Of a stretch of 64,000 nucleotides of DNA, positions 5,278 to 64,000 are shown piece by piece (within the stretch, counting starts at the first letter, position 1; each line of letters opens with the position of its first letter). This DNA comes from Octopus vulgaris (taxonomy: Eukaryota). The stretch is from contig OX597814.1 of NCBI GenBank assembly GCA_951406725.2, positions 23,684,001-23,748,000 on the forward strand, given 5' to 3'. The notes below the pieces were generated by a model, which saw nothing but the letters and a program-made list of their open reading frames with translations, had not been told where the DNA came from and ran no database searches. Both the position numbers and the translations under genes were made by a program.

Positions 5278-5514
5278 ACTCTTACTCTTTTACTCTTTTA
5301 CTTGTTTCAGTCATTTGACTGCGGCCATGCTGGAGCACCACCTTTAATCGAGCAACTCAACCCTAGGACTTATTCTTTGTAAGCCTAGTACTTATTCTAT
5401 CGGTCTCTCTTGCCAAACCGCTAAGTAACGGGGACATAAACACACCAGCATCGGTTGTCAAGCAATGCTAGGGGGACAAACACAGACACACAAACACACA
5501 CATGCATATATATA
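5278..5514 (-). mobile_element. 3' half of CORE-like tRNA SINE
   Basis: Reverse complement of the 3' half of 63381-63776, including the (tactctt)n tail. Confidence 0.85.
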
Positions 5515-5892
5515 TCTCTTATTATAAAAGGCAGATTTTATCTGCCTCCCTTTGGGAGTTATACAAATCTACAATATAGGATTTCTTCAATTACAATTTA
5601 CCTAGCAATTTTAAGAGTACAATGCATCGCGTCATGCCAGGTATAGTTTTTAAAATTTAAACTCCAATTAAGCAAAATTTACAGAAAACTCACATTCTGG
5701 TGTGTGTGTCAAATGCTTTTCTTAGTCTGGTTTACACCACACGCAAACGCACACACACAGTGGGCAGCGAATAAAATGAAAGTAATTTACTTACTGTAGT
5801 GAGTGATTCTTTCACTCTGCCTCCCACTTCCTCTTTCAACACAGACACGCAAATATATAAATAAAATTGTAAGCTAACGTGCGTGTGTGTGA

Positions 5893-5929
<37 letters not shown>

Positions 5930-6016
5930 TGAGGGTGCGCGCGCGTGTGTGTGTGTGTGTGTGCGTGTGCGTGAGTGTGTGACAGGAAAGTTTTTTACGA
6001 CGAATATAAGTAGCAG
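5515..6016 (+). mobile_element. Probable non-autonomous Helitron 5' portion
   Basis: Starts a|TCtcttattataaaag, similar to the Helitron at 7368. No 3' CTAG end identified. Confidence 0.4.
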
Positions 6017-6606
6017 AAAGATAAGACAGTAAGGTGTGATTTGAGGGAGATTTGGCTGCTATTTCTACCATGTCTAGCTGCCATGTAGGGGTCTCCCTCA
6101 TAGGCTCATACATACATATATACATAGATAAGACAGTAAGGTGTGATTTGGGGGAAATTTGGCTGCTATTTCTACCAGGTCTAGCTGCCATGTAGGGGTC
6201 TCCCTCATAGGCTCATACATACATATATACATAGATAAGACAGTAAGGTGTGATTTGGGGGAAATTTGGCTGCTATTTCTACCAGGTCTAGCTGCCATGT
6301 AGGGGTCTCCCTCATAGGCTCATACATACATATATACATAGATAAGACAGTAAGGTGTGATTTGGGGGAAATTTGGCTGCTATTTCTACCAGGTCTAGCT
6401 GCCATGTAGGGGTCTCCCTCATAGGCTCATACATACATATATACATAGATAAGACAGTAAGGTGTGATTTGGGGGAAATTTGGCTGCTATTTCTACCAGG
6501 TCTAGCTACCATGTAGAGGTCCCCCTCATTGGCTCATATATATATACATACATAAGACAGTAAGGTGTGATTTGAGGGAGATTTGGCTGCTGTTTCTACC
6601 AGGTCT
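6017..6606. repeat. 107-bp tandem array, about 5.5 copies
   Basis: Unit begins agataagacagtaaggtgtgattt. The central units are essentially identical, and ORF starts recur at 6191, 6298, 6405 and 6512. Confidence 0.97.
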
Positions 6607-6938
6607 GTTAGGCCTTCTCATGTAAACTCAAGCTTTCTTATGCCTTGAACATAAGACCAAAGCAGAGAATGTATTCTTTTATTCTTCTGCTTTTTCCAGC
6701 CATTGGTCTGTGGCCATGCTGGGGCAATGCCTTGAAGAATTGTAGTTTAATGAATCAACTCCAGTTTTATTTTTGTAAGCATTGTACTTATTCTATCTGT
6801 TTCCACTAGGTGACAGGGATGTAAACAAACCAACATTCGTTGTCAAGCAGTGGTGGAGGACAATCACAAGCACAGACACGCACACACACACACATACATG
6901 CATACATACATATATATATATATGTGTGTATATATATA

Positions 6939-7197
6939 TTGCAGCGTGGAAGGTGTTTGTAAGCCATTTAAGAAACACACAAAAACCGTTACATTCACTT
7001 CAACATTTAAATTTCATTTGCCAAAATATTTTCGTCGCTTTGAGACCGCGACCTGTTCACTGACAAAAATATCGTGCTAACAGGTCGCGGTCTCAAAGCG
7101 ACGAAAATATTTTGACAAATTAAATTTAAATGTTGAAGTGAATCTAACGGTTTTTGTGTGTTTCTTAAATGGCTTATAAACACCTTCAACGCTGCAA
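6939..7197. repeat. Long hairpin with 119-bp arms and a 21-nt loop
   Basis: 6939-7057 is the reverse complement of 7079-7197 with about 5 mismatches. Confidence 0.97.
7017..7067 (-). ncRNA. Minimal type I hammerhead-like motif, G3-C8 core variant
   Basis: Minus strand reads UUUGUCA GUGAACA G GUCGC ggucucaaa GCGAC GAAA AUAU UU UGGCAAA, giving a 7-bp stem I, a 5-bp stem II and a palindromic tetraloop. Confidence 0.65.
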
Positions 7198-7273
7198 CTG
7201 TTTTCGTTCCAGCACACGATCTCAGATCAAGTCACTTGCTATGCAAGTACATCTCTGTAACTATTTATACATT

Positions 7274-7304
<31 letters not shown>

Positions 7305-7367
7305 TGTTAAAAACAGTAAGATAACAAAAGAAAGAAAGAGACCTCAATATTATGTAAATAGAGGAAA

Positions 7368-7762
7368 TCTTTATATATAAAAGTGAGGTTGTGTGTCTGT
7401 CTCCTACGATTTAGATTCCTAACTACTCCCACATTTTGCGGTGCAGTTTAACCAAAAGCGGGTATCTTATAGTCGTGATTCATATCGAGACCGTCTGGGT
7501 ATTAGCGCGCGTCTACGATGAGTCTACGATTTAAAAAAAAAATTACCATCAATTTTTCCCATTTTTAATCCATTTTTGACATATATAAGGGAAGTAACTC
7601 TCTAAAATTTATTATTAAATCTCAGAACGTAAAAAGCTACAGTAACACCCCTCCCCCTTTGTGGTTAGCCATATTGAGATGGCTATTATACTTTACATCT
7701 CTAAAAATGCTTATATAATTATTTCCCTTACAAACCCGAGCAACGCCGGGCGATACTGCTAG
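7368..7762 (+). mobile_element. Non-autonomous Helitron
   Basis: 5' TC, 3' hairpin cccgagcaacgccggg followed by CTAG, inserted between A7367 and T7763, no TSD. Confidence 0.85.
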
Positions 7763-63380: not shown

Positions 63381-63776
63381 GTGGCTGTGTGGTAAGTAGC
63401 TTGCTTACCAACCACATGGTTCCAGGTTCAGTCCCACTGCATGGCACCTTGAGCAAGTGTCTTCAATTATAGCTTCAGGTCGACCAAAGCCTTGTGGGTG
63501 GATTTGGTAGACGGAAACTGAAAGAAGCCTGTCGTATATATGTATGTATATATATGTATGTGTGTGTATATGTTTGTGTGTCTGTATTTGTCCTCCCAAC
63601 ATCGCTTGACAACCGATGCTGGTGTGTTTAAATCCCCGTAACTTACCGGTTCAACAAAAGAGACTGATAGAATAAGTACTAGGCTTACAAAGAATAAATC
63701 CTGGGGTCGATTTGCTCAACTAAAGGTGGTGCTCCAGCATGGCCACAGTCAAAGGACTGAAACAAGTAAAAGAGTA
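63381..63776 (+). mobile_element. Full-length CORE-like tRNA SINE
   Basis: A box tggctgtgtgg, B box ggttcagtccc, caccttgagcaagt CORE-like motif, central (TA/TG)n and an agagta tail. Confidence 0.9.
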
Positions 63777-64000
63777 ATTACTAATTGCAAAAAGAAATCA
63801 CATTTTAAAAATGTTTGGTTAACAATTCCGTTGTTCTTTTACTGGTTTCAACCAGACGTTGTGACCATGCTTGAGATTGCCATTAAAATATTTGAACTGA
63901 GTTCCATATGAGCAGCTTGACGAAAATATATTTAACGATGTTCCAGTTGTGACCACCTCATTTATTTTTCTAATGATCTTGGTACATTGTCCAATCTGGC

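What the first reader, a model, noticed from the sequence alone, without database searches (positions are those of the whole stretch)
7017..7067. G3-C8 swapped hammerhead candidate
The core reads GUGAACA rather than CUGANGA, an exact reciprocal swap of the 3-8 pair. It has a 7-bp stem I (one G-U), a 5-bp stem II, GAAA, a palindromic AUAU loop and a UUU triplet. The other hairpin arm has UGACAAA, which would make stem I fully Watson-Crick. The UUU triplet is normally weak, so activity is uncertain.
Basis: partly seen in the sequence, partly recalled or inferred. Interest (0 to 1): 0.78.

Follow-up and report, generated by a model that had tools for sequence, protein, structure and literature searches.

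The report
Swapped-core hammerhead of a Penelope-like retroelement
This is a scrap of a jumping gene's self-cutting "hammerhead" RNA in which two paired core letters have traded places; the swap is old and shared by thousands of copies, so it likely still cuts in the full element, but this copy is predicted to be a silent passenger inside another mobile element.

Summary
The motif is real, on the minus strand (7067→7017). The genome holds 5,301 exact matches to the G3-C8 core plus stem II. They belong to a PLE family with a 1,025-aa open RT/GIY-YIG frame. An older subfamily, about 30% diverged, keeps G3-C8 while N7, loop II, helix III and one stem I pair differ. Sister families carry C3-G8 or U3-A8, so the 3-8 pair covaries naturally. 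This copy is the inverted arm of a truncated insertion, copied inside a 2.25-kb non-autonomous Helitron, and is predicted to be buried in a 119-bp hairpin. Cleavage is untested: copies show no pile-up at the cut site, and G3·G8 mismatch copies are in excess. The engineered swap partly rescues activity (PMC11167929). I found no natural G3-C8 in print, but a key paper was unreadable. This scan noted G3-C8 hammerheads before, on other DNA. Verdict: new variant of a known ribozyme.

The parts
7017..7067 (-). Type I minimal hammerhead motif with a G3-C8 core, extra G after A9, palindromic helix III and UUU triplet; predicted cut between 7024 and 7023
   Evidence: sequence; family comparison
7054..7060 (-). 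Core box GUGAACA (G3 at 7060, C8 at 7055)
6939..7078 (-). Inverted short copy of the PLE pseudo-LTR end; holds the whole motif and stops at the nearer of the family's two 3' end points
7079..7260 (+). Main copy of the PLE end, 5'-truncated at A6 (core incomplete), with the long tail; the ATG at 7169 matches the start of the family's reading frame
6939..7197 (.). Inverted repeat formed by the two copies: 119-nt arms, 96% complementary, 21 nt apart
5515..7762 (+). Non-autonomous Helitron, 2,248 bp: starts TC after A, ends CTAG before T; carries the PLE scrap
7735..7750 (+). Subterminal G+C hairpin of the Helitron
   Evidence: sequence
6019..6606 (+). 107-bp minisatellite inside the Helitron (5.5 units here); left alignment ends of other copies step by this unit

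Best explanation
The motif is the pseudo-LTR hammerhead of a Penelope-like retroelement family whose 3-8 core pair is G-C instead of C-G; it likely self-cleaves weakly in the full element, while this copy is predicted to be silent. SHOWN: the family has an RT/GIY-YIG frame, with the motif about 1 kb behind the stop codon and about 50 nt before the next start codon. The swap is shared by young and very old subfamilies. Sister families use other Watson-Crick pairs at 3-8. This copy is the inverted arm of a truncated insertion that was copied inside a Helitron. INFERRED: the element's capped transcript starts about 59 nt before the cut site. Two motifs would pair through the palindromic helix III, or the element's protein would assist folding. 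The base at position 8 would be held by G3 while its 2'-OH acts as general acid and G12 as general base. A cut after U17 would remove the capped leader or trim read-through RNA from tandem copies. U17 in place of C17 likely makes G3 tolerable by avoiding a G3-C17 Watson-Crick trap. Cleavage is probably slow and not needed for each jump, because most copies were made from uncut RNA.
For: 5,301 exact matches, control 0. All 10 loci chosen for long open frames carry the G3-C8 motif. The 1,025-aa frame has a GIY-YIG hit above the Pfam cut-off. Old subfamily with positions 3, 7 and 8 left free: 18 of 22 have G3, 21 of 22 have C8, none has C3-G8 (one young-family locus of the 23 set aside), at 30% mismatch downstream. 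Its majority N7 is C, stem II is 6 bp, helix III is AAUU, and one outer stem I pair is G-C where the young family has U-A. Canonical sisters: 1,085 matches, control 3. U3-A8 sister: loci L090 and L091. In 11 chosen representatives the 3-8 pair is G-C in 7 and C-G in 4, never unpaired. The extra nucleotide, G10.1-C11.1 and palindromic loop 3 are the published PLE features (PMC4209133). C3G/G8C partly restores cleavage of a PLE hammerhead, which needs the element's protein (PMC11167929). A G3-C8 variant did better with G17 than with C17 (PMC3884650, data not shown there). The 2'-OH of residue 8 is the proposed general acid (PMC6155905). 5' ends cluster 56-60 nt before the cut, and 14 of 22 copies starting there have a G before them, as a copied cap would give.
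Against: No cleavage was measured. 5' junctions are flat across the cut site: about 8 at the site against 2-9 at neighbouring places (my tally by eye of the first 100 of 463 rows). C8G copies are in excess: 42 of the first 100 of 260 changes at position 8, against G3C in 12 of the first 100 of 101 changes at position 3 (Fisher p = 2.5e-6). In 4 of 9 adjacent inverted pairs both arms carry G8, so presumably dead cores have transposed. A sister family with 1,311-aa open frames carries A9C. The predicted fold pairs G3 with U17, and the helix III duplex is marginal (-0.2 kcal/mol). The 11 representatives were hand-picked and related, so one search counts one or two events, not eleven. No rooted tree was made.
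Confidence: 0.6

Rival explanations
1. The family's motif is a hammerhead descendant that no longer cuts to any useful degree. It is kept as a folded signal or promoter-proximal sequence at the 5' end of the element's RNA, and G3-C8 was fixed once and inherited.
For: Excess of G3·G8 copies on all three subfamily backgrounds; A9C in a sister with open frames; no pile-up at the cut site; hammerhead mutants did not affect insertion in vitro in the anole element (PMC11167929); UUU triplet and predicted G3-U17 pairing.
Against: Both partners changed to give a Watson-Crick pair, and three different pairs occur among families. The core stayed fixed while N7, loop II and helix III changed between old and young subfamilies.
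Confidence: 0.33
2. This particular copy works as a ribozyme, and its many identical copies show selection on it.
For: Core and stems are complete, and 36 of the 40 scored places are 100% identical over 140 bp.
Against: The identity covers the whole Helitron. The hairpin junction is the same single insertion in 29 of those 30 loci by exact match. On the minus strand the antisense arm is made first, and the motif's stems have predicted probability 0.0.
Confidence: 0.04
3. The resemblance to a hammerhead is a chance fold in repeat DNA.
For: No Rfam match; z only -2.1.
Against: It lies at the expected place in a PLE, and homologous motifs with the canonical core lie at the same place in sister families.
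Confidence: 0.01

Closest known systems
Minimal type I hammerheads of metazoan Penelope-like elements (Cervera and de la Pena 2014, PMC4209133)
   Same: In the pseudo-LTR; extra nucleotide between 9 and 10.1; G10.1-C11.1; tiny palindromic helix III; thousands of truncated copies, some in close inverted pairs.
   Different: Core pair G3-C8. The parts of that paper I read report C3-G8 and, in Schistosoma, U3-A8. Stem I is 7 bp here against 4-5 bp in the Schistosoma motifs.
Engineered C3G/G8C double mutant of the anole Poseidon (PAc) hammerhead (Frangieh et al. 2024, PMC11167929)
   Same: Same swap; motif near the start of the reading frame; two 3' end points that give a tail; copies made from uncut RNA.
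   Different: There a laboratory mutant with partial rescue; here the natural, fixed state of a whole family, in an element with a zinc-finger-like linker.
Natural U3-A8 hammerheads (Perreault et al. 2011, PMC3088659)
   Same: Natural compensatory change at the 3-8 pair.
   Different: U3-A8 can be reached by two transitions through a U-G wobble (inference). G3-C8 needs two transversions through a mismatch and puts a purine at 3.
Non-autonomous Helitrons that carry captured DNA (features recalled, not from a paper read here)
   Same: TC start, CTAG end, subterminal hairpin, A|T target, head-to-tail copies, no coding frame.
   Different: The cargo is a palindromic PLE scrap with a ribozyme motif.

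Membership tests
Canonical-core hammerhead (CUGANGA descriptor, Rfam models) | C3 and G8 | tested here: not met
   G3 and C8; no Rfam match at gathering score. Not filed as a canonical member.
PLE minimal hammerhead, as a variant | Watson-Crick pair between positions 3 and 8 | tested here: met
   G-C possible here; G-C, C-G and U-A across families
PLE minimal hammerhead, as a variant | U4, G5, A6, A9, G12-A13-A14, A15.1-U16.1, H17 | tested here: met
PLE minimal hammerhead, as a variant | Extra nucleotide between 9 and 10.1; G10.1-C11.1; palindromic helix III | tested here: met
   G7053; AAUAUU; features from PMC4209133
PLE minimal hammerhead, as a variant | Lies in the pseudo-LTR of a PLE | tested here: met
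   10 of 10 long-frame loci. The window holds only the end scrap and no protein match.
PLE minimal hammerhead, as a variant | Self-cleavage after H17 | not testable with these tools
   No raw RNA reads were served
Penelope-like element with C-terminal endonuclease | One frame with RT followed by GIY-YIG | tested here: met
   L054, 1,025 aa: Pfam GIY-YIG 25.4 bits, cut-off 22.6. RT motifs (DKxG, YVDD) read by eye; Pfam gave no RT hit at E 0.1.
Penelope-like element with C-terminal endonuclease | 5' truncation, inverted partial copy, tail at one end, partial tandems | tested here: met
   60 inverted pairs; main arms end at +147 (50 of 60), inverted arms mostly at +84 to +93; tandem junction in L060
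Neptune clade | CX2-5CxxC linker and placement in an RT tree | tested here: inconclusive
   Linker CX3CxxC and (TA)n flanks are present, but Nematis shares a linker (PMC8557442); no tree with named elements was made
Helitron (features recalled) | 5' TC, 3' CTRR, subterminal hairpin, A|T target, tandem copies | tested here: met
   T follows CTAG in 27 of 27 ends found among 30 loci; head-to-tail copies in L008, L013, L024, L025
Autonomous Helitron (features recalled) | Rep/helicase reading frame | tested here: not met
   Longest stop-free stretch 112 aa; an autonomous partner was not searched for

The most novel reading that the evidence does not exclude
A long-lived, recently mobile animal retroelement lineage has run on a naturally inverted G3-C8 hammerhead, which needs two transversions and was made tolerable by U17. 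One genome then holds a natural series of C3-G8, U3-A8, G3-C8 and A9C cores, and the excess of G3·G8 copies marks RNAs that escaped cleavage. Searches built on CUGANGA would be missing whole families of animal ribozymes.
Probability: 0.35. Interest if true: 0.65.

Novelty: new variant of a known kind. Interest (0 to 1): 0.45.

Why it matters
The 3-8 pair positions the proposed general acid of the hammerhead. The G3-C8 swap is known to me only as a laboratory rescue mutant. A natural family that kept it across about 30% sequence divergence would be evolutionary support for the structural model. It would also show that core-based searches undercount ribozymes and may wrongly call elements ribozyme-free. 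The sister families give a ready natural panel for an open question: whether PLE hammerheads help the element, tune it or merely ride along. The copy in this window matters little in itself.

Tried and rejected
Rfam scan of the window: 0 matches. Identity of copies as proof of selection: rejected, because the 30 best loci are one Helitron family. G3·G8 copies as a surviving ancestral intermediate: not supported; they occur on old, middle and young backgrounds and in the old group are no more diverged than C8 copies (0.035 against 0.037), and none of the 22 oldest copies has G8. Pile-up of 5' ends at the cut site: none seen (tally by eye). In one search, 2 of 60 main arms start there, one explained by stem I microhomology. 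RNA evidence: no RNA holder listed; only contigs were laid, which cannot show ends. Tree to name the sister family or root the swap: not built; only pairwise identities, 50-55% to families B and C; no reading frame lay in the old-subfamily loci. A spliced leader as cause of the 5' cluster: a branch-point-like sequence and an AG lie there, but no shared upstream exon was seen. Literature searches for a natural G3-C8 found none. Lunse et al. 2017 (PMC5785218), Przybilski and Hammann 2007, Martick and Scott 2006 and Hammann et al. 2012 were not held. Sequence look-up in earlier findings: nothing.

Full report
Observation. The described motif is on the minus strand, 7067 to 7017: a 7-bp stem I with one U-G, core GUGAACA, one unpaired G, a 5-bp stem II closed by G10.1-C11.1, GAAA, a palindromic AAUAUU helix III and a UUU triplet. 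Rfam finds nothing in the window.

Local anatomy. The motif is the left arm of a 119-nt inverted repeat. The right arm is a separate plus-strand copy that starts at A6 and lacks G3-U4-G5. Both lie in a 2,248-bp element, 5515-7762, that begins TC after an A, ends with a hairpin and CTAG before a T, forms head-to-tail copies and has no long frame. These are the marks of a non-autonomous Helitron (features recalled). The 30 loci fetched from the best DNA matches are all this element, and 29 of them share the exact hairpin junction. Their identity therefore reflects one insertion copied as DNA. In a transcript through the hairpin, the motif's stems have mean predicted probability 0.0, against 0.96 in the full element's context. 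This copy is most likely silent.

Source family. The core plus stem II matches 5,301 places in the 2.8-Gb genome (control 0). The canonical core with the same stem II matches 3. One fetched locus held a GIY-YIG frame upstream of the motif. Searching with it gave copies with open frames up to 1,025 aa. All 10 loci chosen for long frames carry the G3-C8 motif about 1 kb behind the stop; among 10 more diverged loci, a stem II pattern found one G3-C8 motif, one G3·G8 and one with a change at U4. [quoted passage not shown] This fits Neptune or Nematis as described in PMC8557442 (passages); the clade was not resolved. Tandem and near-full copies show that the frame starts in the tail, about 50 nt after the cut site. 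In 60 inverted pairs the main arm ends at +147 (50 of 60) and the inverted arm mostly at +84 to +93, like the two initiation sites reported for the anole element (PMC11167929, part 1 of 4 and passages). 5' ends cluster 56-60 nt before the cut site (the sample was chosen for intact cores, so it leans that way). Of 22 copies that start at the AGATG there, 14 have a G before it (5 of these G's can come from the inverted arm). I infer a capped start site, and that most copies came from uncut RNA.

Is the swap kept? A control search on position 7 exposed an older subfamily. With positions 3, 7 and 8 free, 23 places matched; one belongs to the young family and was set aside. Of the other 22, 18 have G3, 21 have C8 and none has C3-G8. 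Their downstream DNA is homologous to the young family but differs 30% from its own majority. Most have C7, a 6-bp stem II, an AAUU helix III, and a G-C pair in stem I where the young family has U-A. The core thus stayed while free positions moved and pairs were kept. Sister PLE families, 50-55% identical in protein, carry homologous motifs: C3-G8 (1,085 matches, control 3; endonuclease pieces in 6 of the 20 loci fetched, plus one weak hit), U3-A8 (L090, L091) and C3-G8 with A9C (L082, L083). In 11 hand-picked representatives, which did not include the U3-A8 family, the 3-8 pair is G-C in 7 and C-G in 4, and one stem II pair also changes on both sides. The rows are related, so this documents the events and is not a probability. 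Contigs from 4 runs under four organism codes show no change of 5% or more at the core positions (only contigs at least 80% alike are laid).

Against activity. Single changes at position 8 number 260, at position 3 101 and at position 7 76. C8G makes up 42 of the first 100 rows at position 8; the mirror change G3C is 12 of the first 100 at position 3 (hand tallies; p = 2.5e-6). G8 copies lie on all three subfamily backgrounds, and 4 of 9 adjacent inverted pairs have G8 in both arms. Either some mismatched cores were in the template RNA, or the arms were converted. This is unexplained; it fits both a dispensable ribozyme and an advantage for RNAs that escape cutting. 5' junctions do not pile up at the cut site (by eye). 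The fold predicts G3 pairing with U17.

Mechanism. By analogy, the 3-8 pair holds residue 8 so that its 2'-OH serves as general acid and G12 as base (PMC6155905, passage). The engineered double change partly restores cleavage; that ribozyme needs the element's protein and is not needed for insertion in vitro. A remark in PMC3884650 (passage; data not shown there) implies that G3 is hurt by C17. Both G3 subfamilies have mostly U17, as do some canonical sisters, so U17 may have come first (inference). I commit to weak, dimer- or protein-assisted cleavage of the element's 5' leader or read-through RNA (0.6).

Known or new. Natural U3-A8 is in print (PMC3088659, passages; PMC4209133). Seven searches and passages of PMC6765202, PMC11014351, PMC8490949 and bioRxiv 10.64898/2026.07.22.740005 showed no natural G3-C8. 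Supplement searches showed none either (2 passages of 9 hits seen, one file not searched; 3 of 4 motif hits seen). Lunse et al. 2017, which by its title covers many PLE variants, was not held, so novelty in print is uncertain. Earlier notes of this scan report G3-C8 hammerheads in protist PLEs and phages (unchecked, not used as support). Verdict: a real new variant of a known ribozyme at family level, seen here in a dead passenger copy. Interest 0.45.

Noticed in passing
L082:8185-8232, L083:9779-9826: A sister PLE family with open frames of about 1,311 aa carries a hammerhead with A9C (CUGAUGC); its older copies have the canonical core. A second natural core variant, in a family that looks recently mobile.
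   Followed up: partly
L090:7683-7727, L091:2178-2222: A third family has a U3-A8 core with only a 3-bp stem I.
   Followed up: partly
G000, places; loci L104-L143: C8G copies are several-fold more common than the mirror change G3C, occur on all subfamily backgrounds and sometimes in both arms of an insertion. Unexplained.
   Followed up: partly
L048, L078, L113, L124, L129, L160: Copies that start 59 nt before the cut site are mostly preceded by a G not in the element, as expected from a reverse-transcribed cap.
   Followed up: partly
L050:3150-3180, minus strand: A branch-point-like CTAAC, a pyrimidine run and an AG end just where the 5' ends cluster; may be an intron end, as in the Drosophila Penelope pseudo-LTR.
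   Followed up: no
window 5283-5515, 6670-6900, 63535-63777: A common SINE-like repeat flanks the Helitron, and a piece of it lies inside, beside the PLE scrap: nested PLE in SINE-like repeat in Helitron. The SINE label is recalled.
   Followed up: no
L078, L082, L084: A second, shorter Helitron-like family shares the 3' hairpin and CTAG end with the window's element.
   Followed up: no
L059:1-1270, minus strand: A long frame with repeated C2H2 zinc-finger-like motifs lies near a PLE copy (read by eye).
   Followed up: no
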